From: Clostridia bacterium
Lineage (GTDB): Bacteria > Bacillota > Clostridia > CAKSNL01 > HGM11501
Assembly (NCBI GenBank): GCA_045545475.1
Contig: JAZQAZ010000031.1
Location: 25,164-89,163, forward strand
Length of the DNA stretch: 64,000 nt
Direction: 5' to 3'
How positions within the stretch are numbered: position 1 is the first letter of the stretch; every line of letters begins with the position of its first letter. A program made the position numbers and the translations under genes. Positions 28,286 to 42,808 of the stretch are shown in pieces. The notes beneath the pieces are model-generated. The model searched no databases. It was not told the origin of the DNA and was given only the letters and a program-made list of their open reading frames with translations.

Positions 28286-28318
28286 AAAATGCTTCAGGCA
28301 AAGCCTGAAGCATTTTTT
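28286..28318. repeat. 33-bp palindromic element, copy 2 (bidirectional terminator)
   Basis: Identical to 24876-24908 and in the same orientation. Confidence 0.9.
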
Positions 28319-30086
28319 ATTCGTACTGTGAGTTGTACATTGATGCATAAATTCCGCCCTTTTCAAGCAGCTCTTTATGCGTGCCGTGTTCTTTTATTTC
28401 ACCGTCATTTATAACAAGTATGACGTCGGCGTTTTCGACAGTTGAAAGACGGTGTGCTATTACAAAGCAGGTTTTACCTTTCATAAGGGCGGTCATGGCA
28501 GCCTGGATTTCCTTTTCGGTGCGGGTGTCAACGTTGCTTGTGGCTTCATCAAGAATAAGCATTTTGGAGTCAAGAAGCATTGCTCTTGCAATTGTGAGCA
28601 GTTGCTTTTGCCCCTGAGAAATGTTTATTCCGTCCTCTGAAAGATAGGTGTCATAGCCATCGGGAAGTGCCATTATGTAGTTGTGGATTTTAGCAGCTTT
28701 TGCACACCTTACCACATCCTTGCGTGTGGCGTTTTTGTTTCCGTAGGCAATGTTTTCATAAATTGTTCCGCCAAAGAGCCATGTGTCCTGAAGCACCATG
28801 GCGTAGGATGAACGCAGTGAATCTCTGGTTATGTCAAGGTATGGCGTGCCGTCAAGAGTTATTTCACCTGTTACAGGATCGTAAAACCTCATTAAAAGAT
28901 TTATTATAGTGGTTTTACCTGCACCTGTAGGTCCCACAATTGCAATGAGCGAGCCTTTATCTGCTTTGAGATTGACATTTTTTAATACAGTTTTTACACC
29001 GTCATATGAAAAATTTACATCTTTCAATTCCACATTACCGCAGACGTTTTCCATAGACTTAGCACCGGATAAATCGGCAGGTTCGCTTTCTTCATCGATA
29101 AGGCGAAAAACACGTTCCGCAGCCGCTAAGGATGACTGAAGCTCACTTAAAATGTTGGCAATTTCGTTTATGGGGCCGGAAAATTTTCTTGAATACAAAA
29201 CAAAGGTGGATAAATTACCCGGTGTAAGCTTGCCTTTTAAGAAAAGTATCGCCCCAAACATACTTATAAGAGCCAGAGACAGATTGTTTACAAAGTTTAC
29301 AGAAGGCCCCATGGTGCTTCCGTGATACTCTGCTTCATAGTGGGCACTTACCGCATCAGTGTTTTTATCGTCGAAACGGTCAATCATGACTTCTTCCGAA
29401 TTATATGCCTTAATGGATTTTTGCCCCGTTATGATTTCTTCGGCATATCCGTTAAGCTCTCCCAGCTTTGCACTTCTCTTCTTAAATAAGGGACGTACCT
29501 TTTTTGCTTTGTATCTTGTCATAAGAAGGGAAATGGGAATGGTTATCGCAAATACCAAAACCAAAACCGGAGAAATTTTTATCATCATGAAAAGTGAGCC
29601 GAGGATTGTTATGGCACTTGTTGATATCTGAACAAAATCGTGGGATAGGGATGAGTTTATTGTGTCAATGTCGTAAGACATTCGGCTTACTATATCTCCT
29701 GTCTGATGGCGGTCAAAAAAGCTTACAGGCATAGAAAGGAGCTTGTCCGATAAATCCTTCCTCATTTTGTAAATTATTTTCTGGCTTAAATTCACCATTA
29801 ACACAGAAAGGGCATAGGAAAGAAGCGCAGAAAGTGCGTACATTATAATCATTAATGTGCAGTAGTAAAATACCTTTGGAAAATCCGCTTCGCCCTTTGA
29901 AAGGCCGATTGCATCGATGGCGTTACCGGAAAGACGGGGACCTACAAGGGAAAAAACATTGCTTGTTACGGTTAAAAGAATTGAACCAAGGAGCATTAAT
30001 TTATGCTGCATAAGATATTTTCCGAGCCTTAGCAAGGTTTTCTTTTTATCCTGTACCTGATTTTTTTCGTTTCTTTCCTTACTCAA
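28317..30086 (-). CDS. ABC exporter fused permease/ATPase, consensus-site subunit of a heterodimer
   Basis: GPTGAGKTT, ISQGQKQ, LILDEATS, IAHRL; TTG start at 30086 after GGAGG. Confidence 0.92.
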   Translation of the reverse strand: MSKERNEKNQVQDKKKTLLRLGKYLMQHKLMLLGSILLTVTSNVFSLVGPRLSGNAIDAIGLSKGEADFPKVFYYCTLMIIMYALSALLSYALSVLMVNLSQKIIYKMRKDLSDKLLSMPVSFFDRHQTGDIVSRMSYDIDTINSSLSHDFVQISTSAITILGSLFMMIKISPVLVLVFAITIPISLLMTRYKAKKVRPLFKKRSAKLGELNGYAEEIITGQKSIKAYNSEEVMIDRFDDKNTDAVSAHYEAEYHGSTMGPSVNFVNNLSLALISMFGAILFLKGKLTPGNLSTFVLYSRKFSGPINEIANILSELQSSLAAAERVFRLIDEESEPADLSGAKSMENVCGNVELKDVNFSYDGVKTVLKNVNLKADKGSLIAIVGPTGAGKTTIINLLMRFYDPVTGEITLDGTPYLDITRDSLRSSYAMVLQDTWLFGGTIYENIAYGNKNATRKDVVRCAKAAKIHNYIMALPDGYDTYLSEDGINISQGQKQLLTIARAMLLDSKMLILDEATSNVDTRTEKEIQAAMTALMKGKTCFVIAHRLSTVENADVILVINDGEIKEHGTHKELLEKGGIYASMYNSQYE

Positions 30087-31794
30087 AGTGACCGCCTCCC
30101 ATCTGTGTTTCGGCAATTTCTCTGTAGGCGGGACAATTTGCCATTAAGTCTTCGTGCGTGCCGCTTCCTATAATTTCGCCTTCGTCAAGCATTAATATTA
30201 GGTCAGCGTGCTTTATGGAGCTTATTCGCTGTGCAATTATTATGGACGTGGTATCTTTGAAGTTTTCCTTTATATTGCGTCGGAGTGCAGCATCTGTCCT
30301 GTAATCAAGAGCACTTGATGAGTCGTCCAGAATTAAAATGTCATTGTCTCCGGCAAAGGCACGGGCAAGAAGAACTCGTTGCTTCTGACCGCCGGAAAGA
30401 TTTGCACCCTTTCCTGTCAGCATATGACAGAATTTGTCAGGCAGGGAGTCAATAAATTCAAAGGCACAGGCGTGCTTTGCGGCGTTTTCTATTTGCTCAT
30501 CTGTCAGATTTCTTCCGAAATCAATATTGTTTTTTATGGTATCAGCAAAAAGCACATCGCCCTGAAAAACCGTACCAAACATTCTGTGAAGCTTTTCGTG
30601 GGGGATTGAACGCACCGATTTGCCGTTTATGTAAATCCTTCCGGTATCTGTATCGTAAAGGCGCATAAGAAGATTTATGATGGTGCTTTTTCCGCTTCCG
30701 GTGGCACCGATGATTCCGAGGGTTTCTCCTTTCTTTAAGGAGAAACTTATATTTTTTATGTTGTCTCTTTTCTTGTTATACGAAAAGGTCACATTGTCAA
30801 AAACGATATGGGCATCTGTTTTGACTGGGTCATCATCTATTATGGGAAGATTTCCCGGGGACGACAAAACATCACCGATTCGCTTTGCGGAGGCACTTCC
30901 CTTAGATGTCATAACAAATATTCTTGTAATGGACATCATTGCGTTTAAGATAATGGTGAAATAGGACAAAAAAGCAATAATTTTACCTGTTTCGGAAACA
31001 CCTGCATTGACACGGTAAGCACCGACCAGGATAACCAAAGTAAGTCCCGTATTAAGGTAGATGTTCATAACAGGGTTTGTGAGAGCCATGGTGAGGCCTG
31101 CTCTCTTTTCGTTTTTCACAACATTGTGGTTTGCTTCATCGAAGCGTTCTTTTTCGTAATCAACTTTAGAAAGAGCTTTTATTACCCTTATTCCGCTGGC
31201 ATGTTCTCTTACGGCCCTTATCATATTGTCAACGGAGGACTGAAGGGAAGAATAAAGCGGAACACCTTTTTTTGAAATTGTCCATACGGAATATCCCATA
31301 AAGGGGAGAAGACATAAAAGAACGAGTGCTAAAACAGGCTCCAGAGAAAAAGCTATTAAGAGACCGCCTATAAGAAGGATAGGGGCTCTTACACCCATTC
31401 GCTGCATCATTCCTATCATGTGGTGTAAATGATAAGTATCGCTGGTAAGTCTAGTTTCGAGGGAGGGTATGGTGAATGAATCTATCTCTGAGGAAGAAAG
31501 GTATGAAATTTTGGTAAACAAATCGTGGCGGATTGCTTTAGTAGTATTTTTTGCAACCTTTGCAGCCATGCGGTTTGCGACTACGTTTCCGATTAAAGCA
31601 ATGGCAGAAACAATAATCATGACTCCACCCCAGAAATAAACCTCGTTTATGTTTCCTGTCGGGACAACATTATCTATAATATGGGCAAGAATATATGGGA
31701 GAAAAAGGTCCATGATAGTGCCGATGAATTTAATGGTAAGACCGATGATTATGGCAAAAAGCTGAGGTTTTATATATGGATAAATCTTTTTCAC
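30079..31794 (-). CDS. ABC exporter fused permease/ATPase, degenerate-site subunit of a heterodimer
   Basis: GATGSGKST, LSGGQKQR, ILDDSSSALD (D for catalytic E), IAQRI (Q for H). Confidence 0.92.
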   Translation of the reverse strand: MKKIYPYIKPQLFAIIIGLTIKFIGTIMDLFLPYILAHIIDNVVPTGNINEVYFWGGVMIIVSAIALIGNVVANRMAAKVAKNTTKAIRHDLFTKISYLSSSEIDSFTIPSLETRLTSDTYHLHHMIGMMQRMGVRAPILLIGGLLIAFSLEPVLALVLLCLLPFMGYSVWTISKKGVPLYSSLQSSVDNMIRAVREHASGIRVIKALSKVDYEKERFDEANHNVVKNEKRAGLTMALTNPVMNIYLNTGLTLVILVGAYRVNAGVSETGKIIAFLSYFTIILNAMMSITRIFVMTSKGSASAKRIGDVLSSPGNLPIIDDDPVKTDAHIVFDNVTFSYNKKRDNIKNISFSLKKGETLGIIGATGSGKSTIINLLMRLYDTDTGRIYINGKSVRSIPHEKLHRMFGTVFQGDVLFADTIKNNIDFGRNLTDEQIENAAKHACAFEFIDSLPDKFCHMLTGKGANLSGGQKQRVLLARAFAGDNDILILDDSSSALDYRTDAALRRNIKENFKDTTSIIIAQRISSIKHADLILMLDEGEIIGSGTHEDLMANCPAYREIAETQMGGGHFE

Positions 31795-31815: not shown

Positions 31816-31844
31816 ATGATACACCTTTAAATTTTTGGTGTCAA
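31816..31844 (-). promoter_or_regulatory. SigmaA promoter of the ABC exporter operon
   Basis: TTGACA-17 bp-TATCAT on the minus strand; -35 overlaps the upstream terminator. Confidence 0.65.
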
Positions 31845-31877
31845 TAAAAAAAGAGGCCTAGCCTCTTTTTTTATTGA
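31841..31877 (-). terminator. Terminator overlapping the NUDIX stop codon
   Basis: 17-bp perfect inverted repeat TCAATAAAAAAAGAGGC-CTA-GCCTCTTTTTTTATTGA. Confidence 0.8.
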
Positions 31878-32751
31878 ACAAGTACATGAAAAATGCACTT
31901 TGTGTAAAACCATCTTTTATTTCTCCGTTTATGATTTTTTGGGAAAGCTCGTTATCCGTTAGTGTGATATAGCCTTTTATTCCTTCCTCATCGGTGTTTA
32001 CTTCATTTATTTCCTTTCTTAGATGTGCAAGGTAAATGGAAACTATTGCGGAGGAAAGCCCTGAATCTGGATATGTATCTCCGAGGCGGGAAATAGCTTC
32101 AACATAAGTATCGGAGAAACCCGGCTTTTTTGAAAGTTCTTCGGAAAGCTCCTTAAGTGCATTTTCGTTCTCGGTGCATCCGTTCTCTAAAAATCCTCTC
32201 GGAAATTCAAAGGATTCCTTTCTTATGGGATGACGCATATTTTTAATGAGAATGAATTTGTCCTCTCCTGTTTCGGAAGTATATACAGGAACGATAACGG
32301 TTCCGCCGCATTCTTTGGGATAAACTATTCTCGAATAGGTGTAGGGTTTCTCTCCTTCGATAAGGTCTGAAACGACCACATAGAAGGGAGAGTTGTCAAA
32401 CATAACCCCGACTTTGAAATTACGGTCCTCTTTGTCCTTGTTATCCTCCTGGAAAGAGAGAATTTTTTTTAGATCTCTGCATATGGGAAACTTTCCATCA
32501 AGTGGTGAAAAAAGCCAGGGTTTTTCTTCCATTAGGCGGAAATATTTTTCGGTACGTTCTTTAAGTTCGGGGTCAAGGAAAAGGGGATATTCAACTAATT
32601 TTTTGTCAAGCCATTCCTTAATCCACATCCATTTTTCGTGAATTTCTGCGTATAGGGGAGGTTTTGCATCGCTTTTGGGATCGTAGGCATTAAACACATC
32701 TTCGGGGACACAGCGGGACATAATATATCTTTTTAAGTATCTATATTCCAT
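31858..32751 (-). CDS. NUDIX hydrolase (ADP-ribose pyrophosphatase-like) with long N-terminal extension
   Basis: NMRHPIRKESFEFPRGFLENGCTENENALKELSEEL variant Nudix box, YPDSGL, EEGI, IKDGFT. Confidence 0.8.
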   Translation of the reverse strand: MEYRYLKRYIMSRCVPEDVFNAYDPKSDAKPPLYAEIHEKWMWIKEWLDKKLVEYPLFLDPELKERTEKYFRLMEEKPWLFSPLDGKFPICRDLKKILSFQEDNKDKEDRNFKVGVMFDNSPFYVVVSDLIEGEKPYTYSRIVYPKECGGTVIVPVYTSETGEDKFILIKNMRHPIRKESFEFPRGFLENGCTENENALKELSEELSKKPGFSDTYVEAISRLGDTYPDSGLSSAIVSIYLAHLRKEINEVNTDEEGIKGYITLTDNELSQKIINGEIKDGFTQSAFFMYLFNKKRG

Positions 32752-32752
32752 G

Positions 32753-35700
32753 TTATACTCTCCTTTTACGCTCTAAGTGCAAAGTACTGTCTGATGTGTC
32801 TTTATCGGAATTGGCAACGGAAAGATTTTCGCCTGATGTTATCTGAAGCTTTGCTTCATCAAGCACCAATGCACCTTCTTTTCCTATACTGTATGATAAA
32901 GAGGAATTTGAAAGGGTATACGCCACTTTATCGGGAAGAAAGGTGTCTTTTGTTTCCTTTATATTTCTTTCCATAAATGAAAGATAGGAGAAAAGTGCTT
33001 CAAAGTCTATGGTTTCGCCTGTTTCGTCCACTCGGAGAATATCGTTATATTTAGTTTCGCTCTCCGACGATATTGACTTTAAGGACTCGCCTTCGGGAGC
33101 CAGGAGCTTACTTTCACTGCGGTATGTATAATGGATGAAGGGAGATACGCGGGAGCCTAAAACAGTGTTCTGACATTCTGTTAAAATGTCAGCCATAAGA
33201 GCTGAGGTTTGAGTATTGTCCGGTGATGAAAAGGATAAAAGGAAGTTTTTGTCCGCTGCTGAAAGGCTTAAGCCTTTTAAGTTGCCCTTTTCGATTCGGT
33301 CTGTATAAAGCTTGTAATGGCTTCGCTCGTAGTTTTCTGGCATATGAGTTCTTATTATATTGTGTATGCGGGAAAGTGAAGAGAATTTCGCAAGGCTTTT
33401 CCTTTTTTCAAAAAAGCCATCCATCTGCTCAGAGAAGCTTAAGCTTTTGCCGAGAGGTCTTTGGTAATTATAATATCTCGAAGCGGTAGGAAGATTTTCA
33501 TCAAGTAGGGTAATGCGGTCTTTATAGAGAGAAAGGCTCTCTCTTAAGGCTGTGGGAAGAGCGGATATATCCTTGTTTCCTAAGATATAATCCATTGCAA
33601 GCAGTCTTTTTTCCATTATGGCAGCAGCTTTTTTGCTGTCAGAGTTTTCTCCGTAATAGTTAAGCTCGGGGAGAGAACTAAATATAAAACTCTGCTTCTT
33701 AAAGCTTGATGCTACATACTCCTTAAGTGATTTTATATTGCCGTAAAGAGAAAGGGAAACGTAGCCCTTCTGAAGTAAGGTGAGAAAACCGGGAGAGTCT
33801 GAAAGACGTAAAAGCTCCGGATTATCTGCAAGCTGATTTGCAGTTAATTTAATGGTGTTGCCGCTTAAAACTGATTTCATAAGTAGCGGCTGTATATCTT
33901 CGGAAGTAAGATTCTTTCTTACGGTAAGCTCGCTGTCAAAATCCGTCACATAGAAGGGGCGGAGAAATTGTCCATGCTCTCTTTTGTGGGGAATCCACGT
34001 ATGTGCACTTTTTCTGACATCTTCGGGTATTTCGTCAAGCTTAAGTCTTGATGAATATTCTTTGAGAATAGAATAGTCCAGCGTAAACGGGATTCTAATG
34101 CTTTCGTCGGAAGAAAGAACTTTAAGTATCGGAGAAGAAGGGGAATAGAATGTATCGCTGCAAAATTCAACCGCCTCAGAATAGCATCTTTTGGATATTG
34201 TAAATTCTGCACATTCTATGTTGGGTGTACTTTCTAAAAGCTCTTCCGCTTCATTCAGACACTTTGATGCGGGAATTACGGCATCACTTAAAAGCATAGT
34301 GGCAGAATGTTCCGTATGTCTTACAAGTGCAAGATTTGCATAGCCTTCCGCACAAAGTGATGAGGCATCGGCGGCTGTGAAAATATCGCTTAAAGAGAGG
34401 GCGATTCCCTTTGCATCCTTTGAAAGCTTTAATGATGTGGTTATGTAGTATTCCGCAACATCATAATTTTCCGCAGCTAGTGCCGAAGATGCTACGCCGA
34501 GAGCGTCCTCCGAAGCTGACAGCTTGATTTTTGCCAGCAAAATATTTTCTTTTCTTTTGTTAAATGTAAGGTTCTTTCTATCTGCATCCTTTATTTTATC
34601 AAAAAAGTCCGGAATGGAACCTATAGCTCTGCTTGCCGTAACGGGGCGTGCCGAAAGGAGCTTTGCGAGGCGGAACTCGCTTTCAAAACGTTCCTTTGTG
34701 CCTGTCAAAAGAAGTCTTGAGGATACCCAATGGGCTATGGTAAGCACTTTTGTGAGAACAGTTTCCAGCTTTAAATTCTTCTTATCCTGAGCATCTTCAT
34801 CTCCCAATGAGGCAAGGAGGGTTACAAGCTCCTTAGGGAAGGTAAAAAGCCCTTTATCTATGTGGTGTAAATGGTTTTTGTAAAGAGCCTTAAGTTCTTT
34901 TTGCTGTGATGCATAAATTTCACTTAAAAATCTGTGCATCACAGCTTCAAGATCAGGGTGCTCTGAAATTTTTTTCAGAAGATTTATTCCTTCCTTTGTT
35001 TCGGGAAGACCGCTGTCGTAGCCGCCTGCGGTTACAAGCCGTGTGTATTTTGAACCCGGAACAACGAAGGGATATAAAAGACCGCTGTAAATAAGACGCT
35101 TAATATATACAGATTCAAGAAGCCCAGCATCTTCAAGAATTTCAACAGTGAGGCTTCCGGAAAACGGAGCAAGCAGTGTATAAAGAAGTAAGTCTTCCCG
35201 GCTGTCTGATTTTATGTTAATGCGATTTCCTGAAAAGCCGTGTCCCTGATTGTCAAGGGCGATTATGGCAAGTCGTGCAATAAGATTTGCATAATGATTG
35301 GACAAATCGGTTTTGTTGAAAGTGGCCAATGTGTCGCTTGATGCACCTGCAAGCTGACGCAACAGATGATGAACAGCACTTTCGTTAAAGCCCTCTTTAT
35401 CGCTGAAGGTCTTGATAAGCTCCTTACCGACCTTTGTCATATTTTCGTGCATATATGTGATTTTTGAATTATACAGAAGTTCGTAGGGAGAGAGGATGAG
35501 AAGAACTTCTGAAAGCCTTTTTAATACAGAATCAAATTTTTTCAGGAGGTTGGAAAGCATAATATGACGGTAAAGCTTATATCTGCTGCTTTTTTCGGGA
35601 CGTAGGTGATCAACGGCGGTATCCTCCGGAACAGAAGATACATCCTCAAGTAAAAGAGCGGATAATATAAGCTGATAGGCGTTTTTGTCTGTTGATTCTC

Positions 35701-36058
35701 GTACACGGTGAATAGCAGAAATCAACCGGTACAGCGAAAGCCCGTCTCCGCATTTTGCGAAAGAAGGCGAAATTTCTTCTTCGACGGAAAGACGATAATA
35801 AATACACTTATTAAGTATACTCATATATTTTGCTTCAAGGTCTAAGTTGATAGAAGCGTGATATAAGTCGGAAAGTGATTCTTCGGGTAGGACTACGTTA
35901 CTTTTACCGTATTTTTTGATATATCCTGCAAGCGGATGGTAGTCTTCGTCTGTTGCCCTTTTTACATATTCTTCTTTATCTCTTTTGTTTTTTGGTGTTG
36001 GCTGTTTATCAAGCCATTCTCCGAATTTTCTTATATTTTCTTCTCTGTCGATTGCCAT
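32753..36058 (-). CDS. Hypothetical protein, 1101 aa, mostly helical, no signal peptide
   Basis: Long uninterrupted ORF, AAGGAGG RBS, own consensus promoter, stop 1 nt from the NUDIX start. Confidence 0.85.
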   Translation of the reverse strand: MAIDREENIRKFGEWLDKQPTPKNKRDKEEYVKRATDEDYHPLAGYIKKYGKSNVVLPEESLSDLYHASINLDLEAKYMSILNKCIYYRLSVEEEISPSFAKCGDGLSLYRLISAIHRVRESTDKNAYQLILSALLLEDVSSVPEDTAVDHLRPEKSSRYKLYRHIMLSNLLKKFDSVLKRLSEVLLILSPYELLYNSKITYMHENMTKVGKELIKTFSDKEGFNESAVHHLLRQLAGASSDTLATFNKTDLSNHYANLIARLAIIALDNQGHGFSGNRINIKSDSREDLLLYTLLAPFSGSLTVEILEDAGLLESVYIKRLIYSGLLYPFVVPGSKYTRLVTAGGYDSGLPETKEGINLLKKISEHPDLEAVMHRFLSEIYASQQKELKALYKNHLHHIDKGLFTFPKELVTLLASLGDEDAQDKKNLKLETVLTKVLTIAHWVSSRLLLTGTKERFESEFRLAKLLSARPVTASRAIGSIPDFFDKIKDADRKNLTFNKRKENILLAKIKLSASEDALGVASSALAAENYDVAEYYITTSLKLSKDAKGIALSLSDIFTAADASSLCAEGYANLALVRHTEHSATMLLSDAVIPASKCLNEAEELLESTPNIECAEFTISKRCYSEAVEFCSDTFYSPSSPILKVLSSDESIRIPFTLDYSILKEYSSRLKLDEIPEDVRKSAHTWIPHKREHGQFLRPFYVTDFDSELTVRKNLTSEDIQPLLMKSVLSGNTIKLTANQLADNPELLRLSDSPGFLTLLQKGYVSLSLYGNIKSLKEYVASSFKKQSFIFSSLPELNYYGENSDSKKAAAIMEKRLLAMDYILGNKDISALPTALRESLSLYKDRITLLDENLPTASRYYNYQRPLGKSLSFSEQMDGFFEKRKSLAKFSSLSRIHNIIRTHMPENYERSHYKLYTDRIEKGNLKGLSLSAADKNFLLSFSSPDNTQTSALMADILTECQNTVLGSRVSPFIHYTYRSESKLLAPEGESLKSISSESETKYNDILRVDETGETIDFEALFSYLSFMERNIKETKDTFLPDKVAYTLSNSSLSYSIGKEGALVLDEAKLQITSGENLSVANSDKDTSDSTLHLERKRRV

Positions 36059-36085
36059 AATTATTCCTCCTTGAATGGTAATTTA

Positions 36086-36114
36086 ATTATAATAAAGTGT
36101 TCTTTATCTGTCAA
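36086..36114 (-). promoter_or_regulatory. Perfect sigmaA promoter with palindrome in the spacer
   Basis: TTGACA(36114-36109)-17 bp-TATAAT(36091-36086); ATAAAG-TGTT-CTTTAT at 36092-36107. Confidence 0.8.
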
Positions 36115-36203: not shown

Positions 36204-36233
36204 AAAAGCAGATTGTTTTTACAATCTGCTTTT
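36204..36233 (-). terminator. Terminator after the DeoR gene
   Basis: AAAAGCAGATTGT-TTTT-ACAATCTGCTTTT. Confidence 0.85.
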
Positions 36234-36239
36234 GATTTA

Positions 36240-37001
36240 TTATACTTCTGTAACCTTAACATCTAAGTCTGCCAGTAACTTGGATATTTCTTCGTCTAAG
36301 GGTTTTTCTGTTATAAAATGGTCGATTTCCGAAAAGTCAGCCAGCTTTGCAAAGCCGATTCTTCCGATTTTCGACTTATCGCAAAGATAAAACTTGCGGT
36401 CGGAATTTTTAATCATACATTTCTTTATGCCACATTCAGCTTCGTTACTGTCAAGGATGCCGCCGTTTTTGGTTACGCCGCGGCTGGAGAAGAACACCTT
36501 TGTGGCAAAGAAGTTTTCTTCAATATAGTTCGATGCAAGCGTTCCCACGAAGGACTGGTTACTGCTGGTAAAACCTCCGACGCCGATCACCTTGATGTTG
36601 GGGTTTCCTGCAAGCTCTGTTATAACTCTCATAGAGTTTGTAACGATTGTTACGTCCTTCATATTTTTAAGCTCACGCGCCATATAGAAGGTGGTGGTGG
36701 AAGCGTCTAAAAATATGGTATCACCGGGAACAACGTGACTTGCAGCTTCTTTTGCAAGGCGTTCCTTTGCCTCGGTATTTAAGTATTTTCTCTTTTCCAG
36801 AGACATTTCACGGTTGCTTTCGTCAATGGGAATCGCACCGCCGTGAGTTCTTACCAATGCTTCCTGCTTTTCAAGCTTTTCAAGGTCACGACGTACCGTT
36901 TCCTCCGTAACACCAAGCTCCTGGCTTAATTTGCTTACCCATACGGAGCCCTCAAGTCTCAATGTTTCCAGAATGTGTTTCTGTCTTTCTACAGCAAACA
37001 T
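36240..37001 (-). CDS. DeoR/GlpR family regulator (FucR-like)
   Basis: VTEETVRRDLEKLE, RTHGGA, IFLDASTT, VTNS. Confidence 0.93.
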   Translation of the reverse strand: MFAVERQKHILETLRLEGSVWVSKLSQELGVTEETVRRDLEKLEKQEALVRTHGGAIPIDESNREMSLEKRKYLNTEAKERLAKEAASHVVPGDTIFLDASTTTFYMARELKNMKDVTIVTNSMRVITELAGNPNIKVIGVGGFTSSNQSFVGTLASNYIEENFFATKVFFSSRGVTKNGGILDSNEAECGIKKCMIKNSDRKFYLCDKSKIGRIGFAKLADFSEIDHFITEKPLDEEISKLLADLDVKVTEV

Positions 37002-37021
37002 TTTTATTTCTCCTCTTCAAA

Positions 37022-37056
37022 AAAACTGCTGCACATAGTTTTTATGCAGCAGTTTT
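37022..37056 (-). terminator. Terminator at the end of the BMC structural operon
   Basis: AAAACTGCTGCA / TGCAGCAGTTTT inverted repeat with T tract on the minus strand. Confidence 0.75.
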
Positions 37057-37060
37057 AATG

Positions 37061-37705
37061 TTATTTCTTTATGATTTTTACAAGGTCACCGTTTTTGATA
37101 CCTGCGGAGTTTGCATCGTCGGTATCAATGTGCATTTCAACGTTGAAATCGTCTCTTACTCTTACCTGAACATCATAAAAGAGTGTGGGTTTTACGCTTT
37201 CAACAGATACATCTACATAATCGCCGTCCTTGATTCCGTGACGAGTAGCGTATTCTGGTGTCAGATGGATGTGGCGGTTAGCAATGATTACGCCCTGCTT
37301 TAAGTAGATAGTACCCTTGGGGCCTACAACCACAAGCTTTTCTGATCCTTCAATTTTACCTGAAGGTCTTACCGGGGGGCTTACTTTAAGTATGAACGTA
37401 TCTGTTCTTGAAATTTCAACCTGTGTGTCCTTTCTTACGGGACCAAGTACTCTTACCTTTTCGATGGACTTTAAGGAAGGACCAACGAGTGTAACACACT
37501 CTTCAGCGGCATATTCTCTTCCCATAAGGGTTTTCTTCTTGGTAAGCTCATAGCCTTTGCCGAAGAGAATATCAAGGTCTTCTCTGGATAAGTGAATGTG
37601 GCGCTGTGAAACACCAACCTTGATTTCGCCGTCCTGATCTTTTTTATATTCGGATAAGATTTTGGCAACTGCTGCGCCTATTTTATCAGCATCATACATA
37701 GTCAT
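37061..37705 (-). CDS. pduL: Phosphate propanoyltransferase (PduL) with N-terminal encapsulation peptide
   Basis: VSQRHIHL, VRVLGPVR..TQVEIS, ANRHIHL, EMHIDTDDAN. Confidence 0.93.
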   Translation of the reverse strand: MTMYDADKIGAAVAKILSEYKKDQDGEIKVGVSQRHIHLSREDLDILFGKGYELTKKKTLMGREYAAEECVTLVGPSLKSIEKVRVLGPVRKDTQVEISRTDTFILKVSPPVRPSGKIEGSEKLVVVGPKGTIYLKQGVIIANRHIHLTPEYATRHGIKDGDYVDVSVESVKPTLFYDVQVRVRDDFNVEMHIDTDDANSAGIKNGDLVKIIKK

Positions 37706-37715
37706 TCACCTTGCC

Positions 37716-38369
37716 TTACTCTTCATCAAGTATTGTTGTATCGAAATACTTCATAAGCTCGGGGTGGGGGCTGGGGATGCATTCAGAGCCGAATACTTCA
37801 CCCAAGGGAGCGCATTCCTCTGCACCGTGATCAAGAGAAGCCTTAACTGCAGATACGTTACCTGCCACAACAAGTGTAACAAGTCTTCCGCCGAGACGCT
37901 CTTCCTTGTGAAGAAGTCTTACACTTGCAGCCTTGAGCATAGCATCTAAGCCTACAACTGCGGCGGTGAAGCCCGAAACCTCGAAGATACCGAGAGCCTT
38001 GCCGAAGGAAACATCACTTGCGGGAACGTCCTTCATGCTCTTTGGGAATTTCTTATTGAATTTATCTCTGTTAAAATCAAGTAAATATGCCATCTTTTCA
38101 GCCTGCTCGTCAGGGCGGGCGATAACGTGGGAAACAATAAATCTTCCCTTGGACTTGGCATATTCTTCACCTGCTTCAACAGCTGCCTTAACTGCCGCAA
38201 CGCTACCTTCAACCTTTACACCCATAATGAGGGGAGCAGGAATTTTGGGAGCGAAAGGACGATTTCTGTCAAAGGCGATAAGCTTGACATCTGCTGCCTT
38301 TACCATTACATCAGCGGCACAGAGGGCTGTTGTCAGGCTGTATACTTCTATCATGCCGAATGCATTCAT
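37716..38369 (-). CDS. Tandem BMC-domain shell protein
   Basis: Two BMC domains (AFGMIEV..AADVMVKAA..VIARP; ALGIFEV..DAMLKAA..IPSPH). Confidence 0.88.
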   Translation of the reverse strand: MNAFGMIEVYSLTTALCAADVMVKAADVKLIAFDRNRPFAPKIPAPLIMGVKVEGSVAAVKAAVEAGEEYAKSKGRFIVSHVIARPDEQAEKMAYLLDFNRDKFNKKFPKSMKDVPASDVSFGKALGIFEVSGFTAAVVGLDAMLKAASVRLLHKEERLGGRLVTLVVAGNVSAVKASLDHGAEECAPLGEVFGSECIPSPHPELMKYFDTTILDEE

Positions 38370-38388
38370 TTATCTCAATCCTCTCAAA

Positions 38389-39783
38389 TTAAACAATATG
38401 GAAGCCGTCAACAAGTACGCAACGTCTGCTTCTTGTGAAGGAGTGTGCTGCGGTTAAGCCTTCTCCTGTGGGACCTGCGATGGTGAAGGTGGTATAACCC
38501 TCGCCGCCTGCGCCGATTCCGGCATAGGAGGGAGCGTTCTTAACGAAGATTGTTGTTTCAACTTCGCGTGCAAATCTTGTAAGATGGTCAACGTTCTTGG
38601 AGTGGATGTGAGCAGAGTGGCGGTTGCCGTGTTCTGCCTGTACTGCAAGAGTGATTGCCTCATCAATATCGTCAACTCTTACGATTGCGAGGATGGGCAT
38701 CATCATTTCAACCTGAACGAAGGGATGGTTTGCATCAGTTTCGCAGATGATGAGCTTTGTGCCTGCGGGAGCATCAATTCCGAGAGCGGCAAGGAACTTA
38801 ACAGCGTCCTTTCCAACCCACTTCTTATTGATGTCGTACTTGCCGTTCTTATTAACAAGGCAAAGCTCCATAAGTCTGTCGATGTCAGCACCCTTTAAGA
38901 GGTATGCACCGTGCTTCTGCATTTCGGAAATAAGGATATCGGCGATATTTCTGAATGCAAAGCATTCTTTTTCAGCGATACAGGGAAGGTTGTTGTCGAA
39001 GCTTGAGCCGTCAACAATGTCCTTTGCAGCCTTGTATACGTCAGCTGTGTCGTCAACGATAACGGGAGGATTACCTGCACCTGCACCGATTGCCTTTTTA
39101 CCTGAGGATAAAAGAGCCTTAACAACGCCGGGTCCGCCTGTTGCAACAAGCATTCTTACGATGGGAGACTGCATCATTTCGTCGGAGGATTCCTTTGTGG
39201 GATTCTCAACGGAAACAACTAAGTTCTCAGGTCCGCCTGCTTCAAGTACCGCACGATTTACAAGGTCAACTGCATAGTTTGCAGTATCCTTTGCATTGGG
39301 GTGGGGGTTAAATACTACTGCATTACCGCCTGCAATCATACCTATGGAGTTACAAAGAACTGTTTCACTGGGGTTGGTGGAGGGGGTGATGCTTCCGATA
39401 ACTCCGTAGGGAGCCATTTCGATTAAGGTAAGACCTTCGTCGCCTGTCATAGCAGTGGGCTTTAAGTCTTCTGTACCGGGAGTCTTCTTCGCAACAAGCT
39501 GATGCTTTATAATCTTGTCGTGAACGTTACCCATTCCGGTTTCCTTAACGCCGAGCTCAGCCATAACTTCAGCTTCTTCCAAGGTGAGGCGTCTGATATT
39601 TTTAATCATTTCCTCTCTTTGGGCAACTGTGTAGCTCTTAAGTTCTTTATAAGCCTTGCTTACTGCGTTAAGTGCGTCTGTCATATTGGTGAAAACGCCC
39701 TTTTTGTGAGTCTGGGGACGAACCTCGCCCATGGACTTGATTACGCTTGCAACGATTTCACTTATCATTTTTTCGTTATCCAT
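38389..39783 (-). CDS. pduP: CoA-acylating aldehyde dehydrogenase (PduP/EutE) with encapsulation peptide
   Basis: ITPSTNPSET, ATGGPGVV, GAGAGNPP, FDNNLPCIAEK, GPTGEG. Confidence 0.93.
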   Translation of the reverse strand: MDNEKMISEIVASVIKSMGEVRPQTHKKGVFTNMTDALNAVSKAYKELKSYTVAQREEMIKNIRRLTLEEAEVMAELGVKETGMGNVHDKIIKHQLVAKKTPGTEDLKPTAMTGDEGLTLIEMAPYGVIGSITPSTNPSETVLCNSIGMIAGGNAVVFNPHPNAKDTANYAVDLVNRAVLEAGGPENLVVSVENPTKESSDEMMQSPIVRMLVATGGPGVVKALLSSGKKAIGAGAGNPPVIVDDTADVYKAAKDIVDGSSFDNNLPCIAEKECFAFRNIADILISEMQKHGAYLLKGADIDRLMELCLVNKNGKYDINKKWVGKDAVKFLAALGIDAPAGTKLIICETDANHPFVQVEMMMPILAIVRVDDIDEAITLAVQAEHGNRHSAHIHSKNVDHLTRFAREVETTIFVKNAPSYAGIGAGGEGYTTFTIAGPTGEGLTAAHSFTRSRRCVLVDGFHIV

Positions 39784-39802
39784 AATTCATCCGGCCTTTC
39801 TA

Positions 39803-40351
39803 TTAAAGAATTGATTTCCAAATTTCCTTTGTGGGACGGGCAATAACGGCGCTGTCAAGGTAAGTGCCTTCTTCTTTTATTGCCTGTTTTGCCTTTTCGA
39901 TTGCCGCTTCGACTGCAGCAACTTCTCCCGTTATGAACATATAGCTCTTGCCGCTCATACCCTTTGCAATTCTAAGTTCAATAAGCTTTACAATGGCTGT
40001 TTTTGCGGCAATATCTGCGGCAACTATGATAGATGACGCAGTAAATGTTTCAAGTATACCGAGGGCGGATACCTCACCGGGATCTGATGAACCGTACATG
40101 GCGGGGAAGATGTCCTCGTGGGGATTTCCAAGTATGAAGCTGTCAACAAGCTTTGCCGGAAAGTGTGTTTTTGCGGCATCCACCGCTGCTTTTACAGCAC
40201 TCAGCGCACCGCTTACTATTACAATATACTTGCCGGGGCAGACTGTCATAGCCGTGATAATTTCAACTTCTGCAGTTTTTGACATAATGTCTGCTGCCTG
40301 TACGCCGGTGGTTACGTTAAAGTACTCCACCATTCCGATTGCTTTTGGCAT
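39803..40351 (-). CDS. pduT: Tandem BMC shell protein, PduT-like (Fe-S pore Cys)
   Basis: Two BMC domains, TVCPGKY motif, GMSGK. Confidence 0.88.
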   Translation of the reverse strand: MPKAIGMVEYFNVTTGVQAADIMSKTAEVEIITAMTVCPGKYIVIVSGALSAVKAAVDAAKTHFPAKLVDSFILGNPHEDIFPAMYGSSDPGEVSALGILETFTASSIIVAADIAAKTAIVKLIELRIAKGMSGKSYMFITGEVAAVEAAIEKAKQAIKEEGTYLDSAVIARPTKEIWKSIL

Positions 40352-40376
40352 AATGTGCTTCCTTTCAGTTTAATTC

Positions 40377-41705
40377 TCAGTTTATTTTTACGGTAACGCT
40401 CTTCTCCGTCACATCTGTTACAGTTCCGTTTACGGAAGAGTGGATAGGAAGGGAAAGTGCATTTTCGGCTGCAGCGGCAATTATGTCGCCGACCTTAACC
40501 GTATCGCCCTTCTTAACGGCAACTACCGGGGGTGCACCGATACTCTGGGCTAAAGATATTTTTACTTTTGCTGTCTTTATTTCAGTCTCGTCAAGGGGTG
40601 CGTCATGATCGTATTTTACTATGTCAAGACGGCTTATAAGACGTGACATGGGAACAAGTCTTCCGTCTCTTTCTTCCTTGGCATCAATGGGTGCAGGAAG
40701 GGGATCGGGTTTAAGTCCGTTTTTACGGAGCTTGGATTTATATATTCCGATAAGTGCGGCGGGGCTTAAGCCCTGAGGGCAGGAATACATCTCACAAAGA
40801 CCGCAGCCTGAACAGTAAAGGGTGTTAACCAGTGCGGGAACATCCGTATTACCGCTTGAAATGCAGCGCATAAAAGCTGCAGGGTCTATCGGGTGATTGA
40901 GTAAGTTTCTTGAGCAAAGGTCGGTGCAGGTTCTGCACTGACAGCAAGTGCCCATTGCCCTTGTTACACTTATGGTAACTTTCTGAGTCCTTGTGCCTAC
41001 GATATGATGATTTTTAGGAAGTACGATGATGGCATTGCTTGTCTTTGTAACAGTGCCGGATTCATCTGTAAGTCTTCCTGTCATAGGTCCTCCGTGAATA
41101 ATTGCAGTATCTTCTGCGGTTTTGCCGCCGCAAAGTGCAATCAAATCAGAAAAGGACGTACCGATAGGCGCTAAAACCGTTTTGGGATTTTTTACTTCGC
41201 CCGTAACGGTTATATATTTATGGGTTACGCTTTTTCCTTCGAAAACCGCACGGTAAATATTAAGGGCGGTTTCTACGTTTATTACGGCAGCACCCACATC
41301 AAGGGGAAGGCCGCCGGCAGGAACGACTCTTTTAATGGTGTCGTAAACGAGGATTACCTCGTCACCTGCGGGATAAATTTCTTTCAGCAGATGAAGTCTG
41401 CCTTTTTCGTGGTCGGGAAGTACACGGTTAACAGCATCAACGGCGTTTTTGTATGCCCCCTTAACCGCCACGATAAATTCTTTGGCACCAAGCACTTCAC
41501 AAACCAGTGAGAGTGCCTTCATTATTTCTTCTGCGTATGTAGCAATAATCTGTCTGTGAACGCGAAGCAGTGGCTCGCATTCAGCGCAGTTCAAAATAAC
41601 GTATTCTGCCTTTTCGCTCATTTTAGCGTAAGTGGGGAAACCGGCACCTCCGGCACCGGCTACACCGCTAGCCTTGAGTATTTCTTTTAATTTTGTAATA
41701 TCCAT
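40377..41705 (-). CDS. pduS: PduS/RnfC-like flavin Fe-S oxidoreductase
   Basis: GAGGAGFPT, NCAECEPLL, YPAGDE, GGPMTG, CCQCRTCTDLC, CSGCGLCEMYSC. Confidence 0.9.
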   Translation of the reverse strand: MDITKLKEILKASGVAGAGGAGFPTYAKMSEKAEYVILNCAECEPLLRVHRQIIATYAEEIMKALSLVCEVLGAKEFIVAVKGAYKNAVDAVNRVLPDHEKGRLHLLKEIYPAGDEVILVYDTIKRVVPAGGLPLDVGAAVINVETALNIYRAVFEGKSVTHKYITVTGEVKNPKTVLAPIGTSFSDLIALCGGKTAEDTAIIHGGPMTGRLTDESGTVTKTSNAIIVLPKNHHIVGTRTQKVTISVTRAMGTCCQCRTCTDLCSRNLLNHPIDPAAFMRCISSGNTDVPALVNTLYCSGCGLCEMYSCPQGLSPAALIGIYKSKLRKNGLKPDPLPAPIDAKEERDGRLVPMSRLISRLDIVKYDHDAPLDETEIKTAKVKISLAQSIGAPPVVAVKKGDTVKVGDIIAAAAENALSLPIHSSVNGTVTDVTEKSVTVKIN

Positions 41706-41708
41706 TAA

Positions 41709-41978
41709 TTAAAACTCCAATTCTGTGCCGGAGTCCACGATGCCGACAATTGCCGCATCAATGGGACTTGATTCCTTTCCGCAGCCGATTCTTGCTGCGC
41801 TACCTGTTGCAATTAAAACTGTTTCGCCGATACCGCAACCTACGTTATCGACTGCAACAAAGCGTTCGGATGGTTGAGCCTTGCCTAAGGCAGGCTCAAC
41901 CACCATGAATTTGCTTCCGACCAGATTGTCATTTTTTCTTGTGGATACGATGCTTCCGACTACTTTTGCAATAATCAT
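41709..41978 (-). CDS. BMC vertex pentamer (EutN/CcmL/PduN family)
   Basis: VVGSIVSTRK, VAVDNVGCGIGE, GSAAR, PIDAAIVGIVD. Confidence 0.95.
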   Translation of the reverse strand: MIIAKVVGSIVSTRKNDNLVGSKFMVVEPALGKAQPSERFVAVDNVGCGIGETVLIATGSAARIGCGKESSPIDAAIVGIVDSGTELEF

Positions 41979-42020
41979 AATAGAGCATCCTTTCTTGGAA
42001 AAAATGATTTTTTGAAAAAA

Positions 42021-42461
42021 TTACTTAAGTACGGGAATAATCTTTTCAACGTCTGAGTGAGGTCTGGGAATAACGTGAGTAGCGATGATTTCACCAAGCT
42101 TGGAAGCATTGGTCTGACCTGCTTCTACAGCAGACTTAACAGCGCCTACGTCACCTCTAACCATAACGCTTACAAGACCGGAACCGATCTTCTCTGTGCC
42201 AACTAACTGAACGTTAGCAGCCTTGAGCATTGCGTCAGCAGCTTCGATTGCTGCAACTAAACCTCTTGTTTCGATGATACCTAAAGCTTCGAGTGACATT
42301 TTCTTTTCCTCCTTAACTTTAATTACTTCTTCTTTTTTTACCGGAGCTTCTGCTACGGCTTTATTTTCAGCCTCTGCCTTTGCGGGCTCAGCCTTTGCTG
42401 CTGCGGGAGAAGCAGCCTTGGGAGCCGCCTTCTTCGGAGCAGTTTTCTTTTCTTCAGCCAT
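42021..42461 (-). CDS. BMC hexamer (PduA/J-like) with 54-aa Ala/Lys/Glu/Pro-rich N-terminal extension and internal start at 42299
   Basis: [37 protein letters not shown]; RBS at both starts. Confidence 0.92.
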
Positions 42462-42494
42462 GTTGTTTACCGCCTTTCGTTAAAAGGTAATAAA

Positions 42495-42770
42495 TCAGAA
42501 CTTGGGAAGGATCTTTTCAACGTCTTCGTGGGGTCTGGGAATTACGTGTACAGCGATGAGCTCACCAAGTCTGGATGCAGCAGCGCTTCCAGCTTCTGTA
42601 GCAGCCTTAACAGCACCTACATCGCCTCTAACCATAACGCTTACAAGACCGGAACCGATCTTTTCTGTGCCGATGAGAACTACCTCAGCAGCCTTAACCA
42701 TTGCATCTGCTGCTTCAACAGCTGCGGTTAAACCTCTTGTTTCAATCATACCTAATGCTTCTTTTGCCAT
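42495..42770 (-). CDS. BMC hexamer (PduA/EutM-like)
   Basis: [30 protein letters not shown]. Confidence 0.95.
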
Positions 42771-42808
42771 TTTGATATCCTCCTAAAAATTAATTTCTTT
42801 TTTATTTA

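What the first reader, a model, noticed from the sequence alone, without database searches (positions are those of the whole stretch)
31858..36114. Candidate undescribed two-gene conflict/defence system: 1101-aa orphan plus NUDIX hydrolase
Seen: a self-contained operon (perfect promoter, strong RBS, 1-nt gap between genes, 17-bp terminator) unrelated to the flanking ABC exporter and BMC locus. The large cytoplasmic protein has a segment like the winged helix of STAND/NB-ARC proteins (about aa 290-330, LYTLLAPFSGSLTVEILE..IKRLIYSGLL), TPR-like helices (about aa 515-615, ENYDVAEYYITTSLKL, AEGYANLALV) and a distinct alpha/beta C-terminal domain with acidic motifs (FYVTDFDS, LTANQLADNP, FLTLLQKGYVSLSLY), but no Walker A. 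Known: NUDIX enzymes occur in nucleotide-based conflict systems, and STAND-TPR proteins are phage sensors. Inference: sensor/effector plus nucleotide-signal-degrading or detoxifying partner.
Basis: partly seen in the sequence, partly recalled or inferred. Interest (0 to 1): 0.75.

Follow-up and report, generated by a model that had tools for sequence, protein, structure and literature searches.

The report
Orphan-domain protein paired with NUDIX
A rare two-gene cassette, inserted between conserved genes of a gut Clostridia bacterium, pairs a large protein carrying an undescribed domain with a dedicated ADP-ribose-pyrophosphatase-like NUDIX enzyme, and looks like an uncharacterised nucleotide-based conflict (probably anti-phage) module.

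Summary
In detail: the 1101-aa and 297-aa ORFs lie on the minus strand 1 nt apart, with a 12-of-12 promoter, an AAGGAGG RBS and a 17-bp perfect hairpin. Two same-genus genomes have the flanking ABC exporter and DeoR genes about 80 bp apart, so the cassette is an insertion.

The large protein hits nothing in Pfam, PADLOC, NCBIfam or PHROGs. Its C-terminal ~400 aa ("C-dom") models at pLDDT 91.5 and finds no convincing PDB fold. An exhaustive search gave 52 cluster representatives.

The conserved core is C-dom plus one NUDIX clade. They are adjacent in G000/G002, G213 and G827 (reversed order there) and fused in G672 and P0036. The rest varies: a helical/winged-helix/TPR-like N-half here, TM helices in G213, SIR2 in P0041.

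There is no Walker A, so it is not a STAND NTPase. Defence is plausible (sporadic, inserted, IS-associated, SIR2 fusion) but unproven. The window holds no defence island, and two distant loci abut capsule/EPS operons.

Verdict: a real, previously unannotated two-component module and a good candidate conflict system; its mechanism is inferred only.

The parts
36086..36114 (-). sigma-70-type promoter TTGACA-17 nt-TATAAT of the cassette
   Evidence: 12 of 12 consensus matches; sequence read
36066..36072 (-). ribosome-binding site AAGGAGG, 7 nt before the ATG
   Evidence: sequence read
32753..36058 (-). large gene, 1101 aa (P0001)
   Evidence: ORF and translation. 90% identical ortholog in G002 with dN/dS 0.126. 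No Pfam, PADLOC, NCBIfam or PHROG family
35219..36058 (-). aa 1-280: all-helical N-terminal region of unknown function, shared with the full-length relatives P0005 and P0006
   Evidence: AF2 secondary structure; alignment A2
35030..35200 (-). aa 287-343: winged-helix-like element (three helices plus a beta-hairpin)
   Evidence: AF2 model elements H287-299, H305-310, H317-324, E328-332, E339-343; topology only, no family match
34049..34996 (-). aa 355-670: TPR-like helical repeats
32756..33976 (-). aa 695-1101: 'C-dom', the conserved hallmark domain. It has three parallel strands with D708/S709, N741-Q742-x-x-D745-N746 and S770, a helical bundle with R912/Y915, and a beta-rich tail
   Evidence: Model m13e41b135e82: pLDDT 91.5, pTM 0.91. 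Conserved columns. No PDB fold match. Lowest dN/dS of the protein's parts, 0.086
31858..32751 (-). NUDIX gene, 297 aa (P0002), start 1 nt after the stop of the large gene
   Evidence: Pfam NUDIX at aa 152-266. Closest solved relatives are ADP-ribose/ADP-sugar pyrophosphatases. dN/dS 0.077
31954..32298 (-). NUDIX fold, aa 152-266. The box reads G186-x5-C-x7-K-E201-L-S-E204-E205-L-S
   Evidence: Read. E201, E204 and E205 are invariant in 8 of 8 clade members
31841..31877 (-). intrinsic-terminator-like hairpin (17-nt perfect arms, 3-nt loop) followed by a T run; it overlaps the NUDIX stop codon
   Evidence: Inverted repeat I3; sequence
36204..36233 (-). terminator-like hairpin after the upstream DeoR gene; it isolates the cassette from the microcompartment locus

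Best explanation
The cassette is a two-component module. Its conserved engine is an undescribed domain (C-dom, aa ~695-1101 of the large protein) working together with a dedicated clade of ADP-ribose-pyrophosphatase-like NUDIX hydrolase that has its own N-terminal extension. I read it as a nucleotide-centred (NAD+/ADP-ribose-type) conflict module, most likely an abortive-infection-type anti-phage system. Shown: the two genes are real, under purifying selection, and inserted as a unit. C-dom and this NUDIX clade travel together as neighbours in either order or as fusions in either order. Everything else is swapped between relatives. Inferred: the 680-aa helical, winged-helix-like and TPR-like N-half is the sensing or regulatory part. 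C-dom is a catalytic or ligand-handling domain, because its invariant residues are polar (D708, Q742, D745, S770, R912). The NUDIX partner, whose metal-binding glutamates are invariant, hydrolyses an NDP-X compound that C-dom makes, binds or exposes. That hydrolysis either keeps the system harmless until it is triggered or completes a two-step breakdown of a nucleotide or capped RNA. Effector parts added in relatives (SIR2 NADase, transmembrane helices) fit a cell-suicide output.
For: (1) Unit and insertion. The cassette has its own promoter, RBS and terminator and a 1-nt gene gap. In same-genus G009 and G007 the ABC exporter and DeoR genes are 80 and 83 bp apart. G002 has the cassette plus an extra M23-peptidase gene at the same spot.
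(2) Sporadic distribution. C-dom was found in G000 plus 1 of 11 other genus members, in 4 of 399 scored class genomes including one fragment, in 2 of 401 phylum genomes, and in 2 of 351 genomes of the class of G672.
(3) Linkage. G213 has a 465-aa C-dom (hhalign prob 98.6, E 7.6e-16) followed after 12 nt by a 211-aa NUDIX (prob 99.9, E 8.8e-31 to the P0002 clade). G827 has a 267-aa NUDIX overlapping a 410-aa C-dom. G672 has a 744-aa C-dom-NUDIX fusion. P0036 is a NUDIX-helical-C-dom fusion (BLASTP to P0002 E 3e-24). The NUDIX-clade profile scored <=1.3e-39 only in G000, G002 and G213 among 399 class genomes, exactly the three with an intact C-dom gene; the next best was 6.3e-16 and covered the core only. 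An all-against-all BLAST of ORFs in the four loci found no third shared gene.
(4) Conflict flavour. P0041 fuses C-dom to SIR2_2 (Pfam E 2.3e-20), which hits PADLOC ThsA, LmuA and Dsr1 models. The G213 copies are tandem paralogs with C-terminal TM helices beside an IS66 transposase fragment. The G105 copy is a remnant next to a transposase-like ORF. The G672 locus has a PDC-M36A-like gene (E 1.2e-12) and endolysin and replication-initiator-like genes nearby.
(5) Functional genes. dN/dS is 0.126 and 0.077 between G000 and G002.
(6) NUDIX type. The best solved relatives are NudF, ADP-ribose and ADP-sugar pyrophosphatases. E201, E204 and E205 are invariant in 8 of 8.
Against: There is no experimental data of any kind. 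The window holds no defence island: PADLOC on 28 other window ORFs hit only a dGTPase-like gene, RecD2 and an HtrA-like protease, all plausibly housekeeping. There were no tblastn hits in 72,556 plasmids or 50,697 phage records, and none in viral contigs with A7. The G213 and G672 loci lie co-directionally against capsule/EPS operons, which could point to nucleotide-sugar or envelope biology. No flanking repeats or integrase mark the insertion, and its GC content matches the flanks. Context is known for only 5 genomes (4 independent lineages) plus 2 fusion proteins; the neighbours of the other ~45 cluster representatives could not be seen. The P0002 NUDIX box departs from consensus at three positions (E to C, R to K, G to S), so activity is not certain. 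Nothing shows what C-dom does.
Confidence: 0.5

Rival explanations
1. Accessory cell-envelope or nucleotide-sugar (or NAD/ADPR salvage) metabolism. The NUDIX trims an NDP-sugar or ADP-ribose pool, and C-dom is an unrecognised transferase or hydrolase acting on the same metabolite. The pair rides along with surface-polysaccharide loci.
For: The G213 pair lies directly upstream of, and co-directional with, VanZ/CpsB/Wzz/LytR capsule genes. The G672 fusion lies 82 nt downstream of, and co-directional with, an EPS operon (Acyl_transf_3, GLF, NTP_transferase, EpsG, GT1). G827 has an LtaS-type sulfatase-family gene about 5 kb away, and G002 has an M23 peptidase next to the cassette. The closest solved NUDIX relatives include ADP-sugar pyrophosphatases. 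The G213 C-dom proteins are membrane-anchored.
Against: In the window the flanks are an ABC exporter and a microcompartment locus, not polysaccharide genes. The cassette is missing at the empty site in sister species. The family is very rare. One relative is fused to a defence-type SIR2. A 680-aa helical-repeat sensor-like region is not expected for a metabolic enzyme. IS and transposase association and a decayed copy were seen. Polysaccharide loci are themselves variable regions.
Confidence: 0.2
2. A selfish toxin-antitoxin-like addiction pair without a dedicated anti-phage role. C-dom makes or releases a toxic nucleotide or damages RNA, and the NUDIX enzyme neutralises the product (an enzyme-type antitoxin).
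For: The genes are tightly coupled with a 1-nt gap or an overlap. The pair is invariable and no third gene is shared. Distribution is sporadic and copies are IS-associated.
Against: Covalent fusions in both orders (G672, P0036) do not suit a labile-antitoxin addiction logic. The long sensor-like N-half and the SIR2 or TM additions suggest regulated triggering. No plasmid copies were found. This reading overlaps with the main explanation, because many such pairs act in defence.
Confidence: 0.15
3. RNA 5'-end attack module. The NUDIX removes a 5' pyrophosphate, NAD or ADPR-type cap, and C-dom is a highly diverged PIN/FEN-like nuclease that then degrades the RNA. This is a mechanistic variant that could sit inside either the defence or the TA reading.
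Against: Those scores are at noise level. No Pfam PIN or other nuclease family hit any of 13 C-dom proteins even at E<=10. The NUDIX is closest to ADPR/ADP-sugar enzymes; the RNA pyrophosphohydrolase RppH model scores only 12.6 bits against a cut-off of 259.
Confidence: 0.08
4. A STAND-type (NB-ARC/AAA+) NTPase sensor with TPR repeats.
For: There is a winged-helix-like element followed by TPR-like repeats. Foldseek lists the STAND-TPR protein 6mfv at E 8e-3.
Against: P0001 has no Walker A. The 5 family members with a regex match have it at unrelated positions. No P-loop family appears in Pfam, NCBIfam or PADLOC. The region before the winged helix is all-helical in the model, with no alpha/beta NTPase core.
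Confidence: 0.03

Closest known systems
ADP-ribose / ADP-sugar pyrophosphatases of the NUDIX superfamily (NudF 5c7q, 8wv3/9jax ADPRase, human NUDT5)
   Same: P0002 aa ~122-290 aligns to them (profile E 5.9e-10 to 1e-6; single sequence E 3.5e-7). The metal-binding glutamates of the Nudix helix are kept.
   Different: The clade has a ~120-aa N-terminal extension (the YF.L.E..P.LF region) found only in copies linked to C-dom. The box has C, K and S at three consensus positions. NCBIfam equivalog models are far below cut-off (NudE 16.8 against 169). G000 keeps a separate ~189-aa housekeeping-type copy on contig C46.
Sirtuin-based defence proteins (ThsA of Thoeris, DSR1/DSR2, Lamassu LmuA-SIR2)
   Same: The relative P0041 has an N-terminal SIR2_2 that hits these PADLOC models (E 8e-11 to 5.5e-7), followed by a helical linker and a C-terminal non-catalytic-looking module. 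This is the same layout logic as SIR2 plus sensor.
   Different: The C-terminal module is C-dom, not SLOG or HEAT-like repeats. The window protein itself has no SIR2. None of these systems has an obligatory NUDIX partner (recalled, not tested here).
Phage cREC-Nudix fusions and sirtuin-Nudix-cREC neighbourhoods predicted to process ADPr derivatives (Iyer et al. 2022, PMC9503650; passages read)
   Same: A Nudix domain is fused or adjacent to a small Rossmann-like domain with two key aspartates, and is linked to sirtuins. The theme is NAD+/ADPr-derived small molecules in virus-host conflict.
   Different: The Pfam cREC_REC model (PF20274) does not match any of the C-dom loci in G000, G002, G213, G672 or G827. 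C-dom is ~280-400 aa with a helical bundle. The family is chromosomal in bacteria and was not found in phage records.
Single-chain helical-repeat sensors of defence systems and TPR/Rap-type receptors
   Different: There is no NTPase domain and no sequence family match. The structural scores lie below the tool's caution line for helical repeats.

Membership tests
NUDIX superfamily (PF00293) | Pfam model at or above the gathering score | tested here: met
   P0002 scores 21.8 bits against a cut-off of 21.1, E 2e-4, which is marginal. Linked relatives score higher: G213 30.3, G672 36.8, G827 38.1 bits.
NUDIX superfamily (PF00293) | Nudix box GX5EX7REUXEEXGU (consensus recalled) | tested here: inconclusive
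   P0002 reads G186-x5-C-x7-K-E-L-S-E-E-L-S-K. The three glutamates of REUXEE are present and invariant in 8 of 8. The first E, the R and the last G are replaced. P0036 has RETQEEIG.
ADP-ribose pyrophosphatase (NudF/NudE equivalogs) | NCBIfam equivalog score above cut-off | tested here: not met
   NudE NF008736 scores 16.8 bits against 169. The protein is ADPRase-like by PDB similarity only. Its substrate is not known.
STAND / NB-ARC NTPases | P-loop (Walker A) NTPase core before the winged helix | tested here: not met
   No [AG]xxxxGK[ST] in P0001 and none conserved in the family. The N-region is all-helical in the model. No AAA or NACHT family was found.
STAND / NB-ARC NTPases | Winged helix followed by repeat sensor | tested here: inconclusive
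   The topology at aa 287-343 and the TPR-like repeats are present in the model, but there is no family-level match.
TPR repeat proteins | Pfam TPR model or a clear structural match | tested here: inconclusive
Known or candidate defence systems in PADLOC-DB v2.0.0 | A PADLOC HMM hit for either protein | tested here: not met
   P0001 has 0 families. P0002 has only PDC-S07 at E 0.0065 over 45 residues of the Nudix box. Of 47 relatives scanned, 46 had none and only P0041 hit, through its SIR2. The G213, G672 and L008 proteins had none.
cREC (PF20274, cREC_REC) | Pfam model match at the C-dom gene | tested here: not met
   A genome search of G000, G002, G213, G672 and G827 at E<=10 gave matches only elsewhere (G213 contig C18; G000 contig C19 at E 0.21), none at the C-dom loci. 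A distant structural relation is not excluded.
PIN / FEN-like nucleases | Family HMM or fold match with four acidic residues | tested here: inconclusive
Toxin-antitoxin / abortive-infection pair | Toxicity of one partner relieved by the other | not testable with these tools
   This needs expression experiments.

The most novel reading that the evidence does not exclude
C-dom is a new enzyme or receptor fold that, with its private NUDIX partner, forms a previously unrecognised NAD+/ADP-ribose-type immune signalling or nucleotide-attack core. The core is modular enough to be wired to different outputs (SIR2 NADase, membrane helices) and inputs (helical-repeat sensors). That would make it a new family of bacterial immune systems with a new chemistry, rather than a variant of Thoeris, DSR or CBASS.
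Probability: 0.3. Interest if true: 0.85.

Novelty: new variant of a known kind. Interest (0 to 1): 0.64.

Why it matters
If it is a defence or conflict system, it adds a new conserved domain and a new role for ADPRase-like NUDIX enzymes to the NAD+/ADP-ribose branch of bacterial immunity. NUDIX proteins have so far been discussed there mainly as phage counter-measures (passages of PMC9503650). The fusions in both orders give an unusually clean computational case that the two proteins work together, so a small set of experiments could define a new chemistry. C-dom also models with high confidence yet has no detectable solved relative, which makes it a worthwhile structural target. If it instead turns out to be envelope or nucleotide-sugar metabolism, it still defines an unannotated protein family with a dedicated hydrolase partner.

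Tried and rejected
- Family scans. Pfam, PADLOC and NCBIfam on P0001 gave nothing, and PHROGs gave nothing. Pfam at E<=10 on 13 C-dom proteins gave no family shared by more than 2 members.
- PDB sequence profiles A2 and A8 gave only designed helical proteins or a ribosomal protein at E>=0.013.
- ESM Atlas on the whole protein gave a best score of 0.83 to unnamed clusters; on aa 690-1101 it gave no usable hit.
- Whole model: Foldseek against the PDB gave a best E of 1.1e-3 (TPR proteins), and against BFVD a best E of 0.029.
- The search for related loci with A1, A2 and A3 returned errors because no conserved stretch was found. With A4 on genome contigs it found only L008. With A7 it found nothing on metagenome contigs or viral contigs.
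- The search for homologous proteins with A8 and 'longer' found only P0001, P0003 and P0004.
- tblastn of P0001 against plasmids and phages gave no match.
- Complex prediction of C-dom with NUDIX gave no verdict (score 0.00, controls not run).
- cREC_REC (PF20274) gave no match at the loci.
- A search for flanking direct or inverted repeats around the cassette found nothing convincing.
- Sequencing runs gave only small, low-depth contig pieces. One metatranscriptome run (X8) holds two exact contigs inside the large gene (33808-34063 and 35476-35725), which does not show transcription.
- Literature searches (listings and abstracts; PMC9503650: passages on Nudix and cREC) found no description of this family. 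That is three full-text searches of an open-access library, not proof that it is unpublished. Supplements were not opened.

Full report
WHAT IS THERE

On the minus strand of the window lie an ORF of 1101 aa (32753-36058, P0001) and an ORF of 297 aa (31858-32751, P0002). The junction reads TAA-C-ATG, a 1-nt gap, with AAGGAG just upstream. A TTGACA-17-TATAAT promoter with 12 of 12 matches sits at 36114-36086. AAGGAGG sits at 36072-36066. A hairpin with 17-nt perfectly complementary arms (31841-31857 and 31861-31877), followed by a T run, closes the unit. A separate hairpin at 36204-36233 ends the upstream DeoR gene.

THE SURROUNDINGS AND THE INSERTION

Downstream is a pair of ABC exporter genes (28317-31794). 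Upstream are a DeoR regulator and a glycyl-radical-enzyme microcompartment locus (36240-50696). A same-genus genome (G002, which has the same layout as the named record L008, a goat-colon Clostridia MAG) carries a 90% identical large gene and an 86% identical NUDIX gene. They lie at the same place, with an extra M23-peptidase gene between DeoR and the large gene.

In two other same-genus genomes the orthologous ABC gene (74% aa identity) and DeoR gene (85-87%) are separated by only 80 bp (G009) and 83 bp (G007). That spacer holds one terminator and the ABC promoter. The roughly 4.4-kb cassette is therefore an insertion into a conserved junction. I found no flanking repeats or recombinase, and the GC content (about 0.40) is like the flanks.

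Between G000 and G002 both genes are under purifying selection, with dN/dS of 0.126 and 0.077, against 0.049 and 0.033 for the flanking ABC and DeoR genes.

THE LARGE PROTEIN

P0001 has no family in Pfam, PADLOC, NCBIfam or PHROGs. A word-indexed search of 5.8 billion proteins found only two relatives, at 87% and 51% identity. An exhaustive phmmer run over 1.84 billion cluster representatives found 52 at E<=1e-3, 21 at <=1e-10 and 9 at <=1e-30. Most matched only aa ~690-1100.

The AF2 model of the whole protein (28-sequence alignment, pLDDT 82.6, pTM 0.68) shows these parts in order:
- an all-helical N-region;
- a three-helix plus beta-hairpin element at aa 287-343 (winged-helix-like);
- antiparallel helix pairs to about aa 670;
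- a disordered linker at aa 674-693;
- a separate C-terminal domain.

C-DOM

Modelled alone with 52 sequences, aa 685-1101 gives pLDDT 91.5 and pTM 0.91. The layout is:
- three short parallel strands, each followed by conserved polar residues (D708-S709; N741-Q742-x-x-D745-N746; G765...S770);
- a conserved FxFSSLP loop;
- a helical bundle carrying R912 and Y915;
- a beta-rich tail.

Across all forms, including the short ones, Q742, D745, F758, G765 and S770 are invariant. D708, S794, Y865 and R912 are nearly so.

No solved structure matches convincingly:
- Foldseek against the PDB: best E 0.084.
- PDB sequence profiles: nothing.
- ESM Atlas: nothing.
- Pfam at E<=10 on 13 C-dom proteins: nothing shared.

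The alpha/beta part could not be folded on its own, so I do not claim a new fold. I claim only that none was found.

THE NUDIX PARTNER

Pfam NUDIX is just over threshold for P0002 (21.8 against 21.1 bits). The clade profile finds NudF, ADP-ribose and ADP-sugar pyrophosphatases in the PDB at E 5.9e-10 to 1e-6 (single sequence). The box reads G-x5-C-x7-K-E-L-S-E-E-L-S. The three glutamates are invariant in 8 of 8 clade members, which suggests an active enzyme, though three other consensus positions differ. NCBIfam equivalogs are far below cut-off. The clade has its own N-terminal extension of about 120 aa.

THE KEY RESULT: C-DOM AND THIS NUDIX CLADE TRAVEL TOGETHER

- G000 and G002: C-dom protein, then NUDIX after 1 nt.
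- G213 (another family of the class): two tandem C-dom proteins of 484 and 465 aa (hhalign prob 98.0 and 98.6). The 465-aa one is followed after 12 nt by a 211-aa NUDIX that matches the P0002 clade at prob 99.9, E 8.8e-31.
- G827 (another class): a 267-aa NUDIX (prob 99.8, E 2.2e-29) overlapping the start of a 410-aa C-dom gene, so the order is reversed.
- G672 (complete genome, another class): one 744-aa protein with C-dom at the N-terminus and the NUDIX clade at aa 469-736 (prob 99.6, E 4e-24).
- P0036 (1202 aa): the NUDIX clade at the N-terminus (32% identity to P0002 aa 68-297, E 3e-24), then a helical region, then C-dom.
- G105 holds only a C-dom remnant beside a transposase-like ORF.

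Conversely, the NUDIX-clade profile scored <=1.3e-39 in exactly three of 399 class genomes: G000, G002 and G213, the three with an intact C-dom gene. The next best hit was 6.3e-16 and covered only the catalytic core of ~180-aa housekeeping-type proteins; G000 itself keeps one on another contig. An all-against-all BLAST of every ORF of 60 aa or more in the four loci found no third shared gene.

WHAT VARIES

- The 680-aa helical N-half occurs in the ~1100-aa forms (A2).
- C-terminal transmembrane helices occur in the G213 proteins, with a small 2-TM ORF upstream.
- An N-terminal SIR2_2 occurs in P0041 (Pfam E 2.3e-20). It hits PADLOC ThsA, LmuA, Dsr1 and Avs5 models through that domain. Its C-dom is confirmed; that profile includes the close relative P0055, so the E-value there is inflated.
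- Of the 47 of 52 representatives scanned, 43 had no Pfam family at E<=0.01 and 46 had no PADLOC hit. I left out the near-identical P0003 and four short pieces (P0009, P0020, P0025, P0038).

DISTRIBUTION AND CONTEXT

C-dom was found in:
- G000 plus 1 of 11 other genus members;
- 4 of 399 scored class genomes, with 2 genomes not scored;
- 2 of 401 phylum genomes;
- 2 of 351 genomes in the class of G672.

It was not found in plasmid or phage records, or in viral or JGI metagenome contigs, with the queries used.

The contexts are mixed. An IS66 fragment lies beside the G213 genes, and a PDC-M36A-like gene, an endolysin and a replication-initiator-like gene lie near the G672 fusion. However, both of those loci also lie co-directionally against capsule/EPS operons. 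The window itself holds no recognisable defence neighbours.

INTERPRETATION

Shown: this is a real, selected, inserted two-gene unit, and an obligate partnership exists between an unannotated domain and a private ADPRase-like NUDIX clade, with modular accessory parts.

Inferred: a nucleotide-centred conflict module, most likely anti-phage and abortive, in which the helical N-half senses or regulates, C-dom handles an NDP-X-type molecule or a nucleic-acid end, and NUDIX hydrolyses it. I put this at about 0.5.

Rivals:
- an envelope or nucleotide-sugar accessory pair (0.2), suggested by the capsule/EPS neighbours;
- a selfish TA-like pair (0.15);
- an RNA-end attack mechanism with a diverged PIN/FEN-like C-dom (0.08, a lead only);
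- a STAND NTPase (0.03, contradicted).

COMPARISON WITH THE KNOWN

The NUDIX is like ADPR/ADP-sugar pyrophosphatases but is not an equivalog. The SIR2 fusion echoes ThsA and DSR layouts with a different partner domain. Phage cREC-Nudix fusions and sirtuin-Nudix-cREC neighbourhoods, predicted to process ADPr derivatives (PMC9503650, passages read), are the nearest described theme. The cREC Pfam model does not match the C-dom loci, though.

Three full-text searches (listings and abstracts seen) found no description of this family. That does not prove it is unpublished, and no supplements were opened.

VERDICT

This is a genuine, previously unannotated two-component module with strong comparative evidence for functional coupling. 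A defence role is plausible and testable but not shown. I rate it a new variant of a known kind, with a sizeable chance of new chemistry.

Noticed in passing
window 36240-50696 (minus strand): A DeoR regulator plus a glycyl-radical-enzyme microcompartment locus: PFL-like enzyme, activase, class II aldolase, PduL, aldehyde dehydrogenase, BMC shell genes, an RnfC-like flavoprotein and EutP/PduV.
   Followed up: no
window 19149-20375 (+): A 408-aa protein matches the PADLOC dGTPase model at E 8.5e-58. It may be a housekeeping dGTP triphosphohydrolase rather than a defence gene.
   Followed up: no
window 4369-8478 (-): A 1369-aa ORF with no PADLOC hit. It was not examined further.
   Followed up: no
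L008 8830-9894: The sister genome carries an extra M23-peptidase gene between DeoR and the large gene, so the same intergenic junction has taken up other cargo.
   Followed up: partly
L009 1134-5768 (G213): A small 2-TM ORF (phrog_7395, E 3.5e-5), two tandem C-dom paralogs with C-terminal transmembrane helices, and the linked NUDIX. They sit between an IS66 transposase fragment and a capsule operon.
   Followed up: partly
L005 292-756 (G105): A 154-aa remnant carrying the C-dom strand-3 motif abuts a transposase-like ORF. It looks like a decayed copy.
   Followed up: partly
L013 6431-7459 (G672): A 342-aa protein two genes downstream of the C-dom-NUDIX fusion matches the PADLOC candidate PDC-M36A (E 1.2e-12) and phrog_27295 (E 6.6e-20). 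An endolysin and a replication-initiator-like gene lie nearby.
   Followed up: no
window 33808-34063 and 35476-35725: A gut metatranscriptome run (X8) holds two contigs identical to these parts of the large gene. DNA carry-over is not excluded, so this is only a weak hint of transcription.
   Followed up: partly
G000 contig C46 19442-19822: A second, ~189-aa NUDIX of the housekeeping ADPRase type is present in the same genome (E 6.5e-13 to the clade profile, core only). The cassette NUDIX is therefore an extra copy.
   Followed up: no
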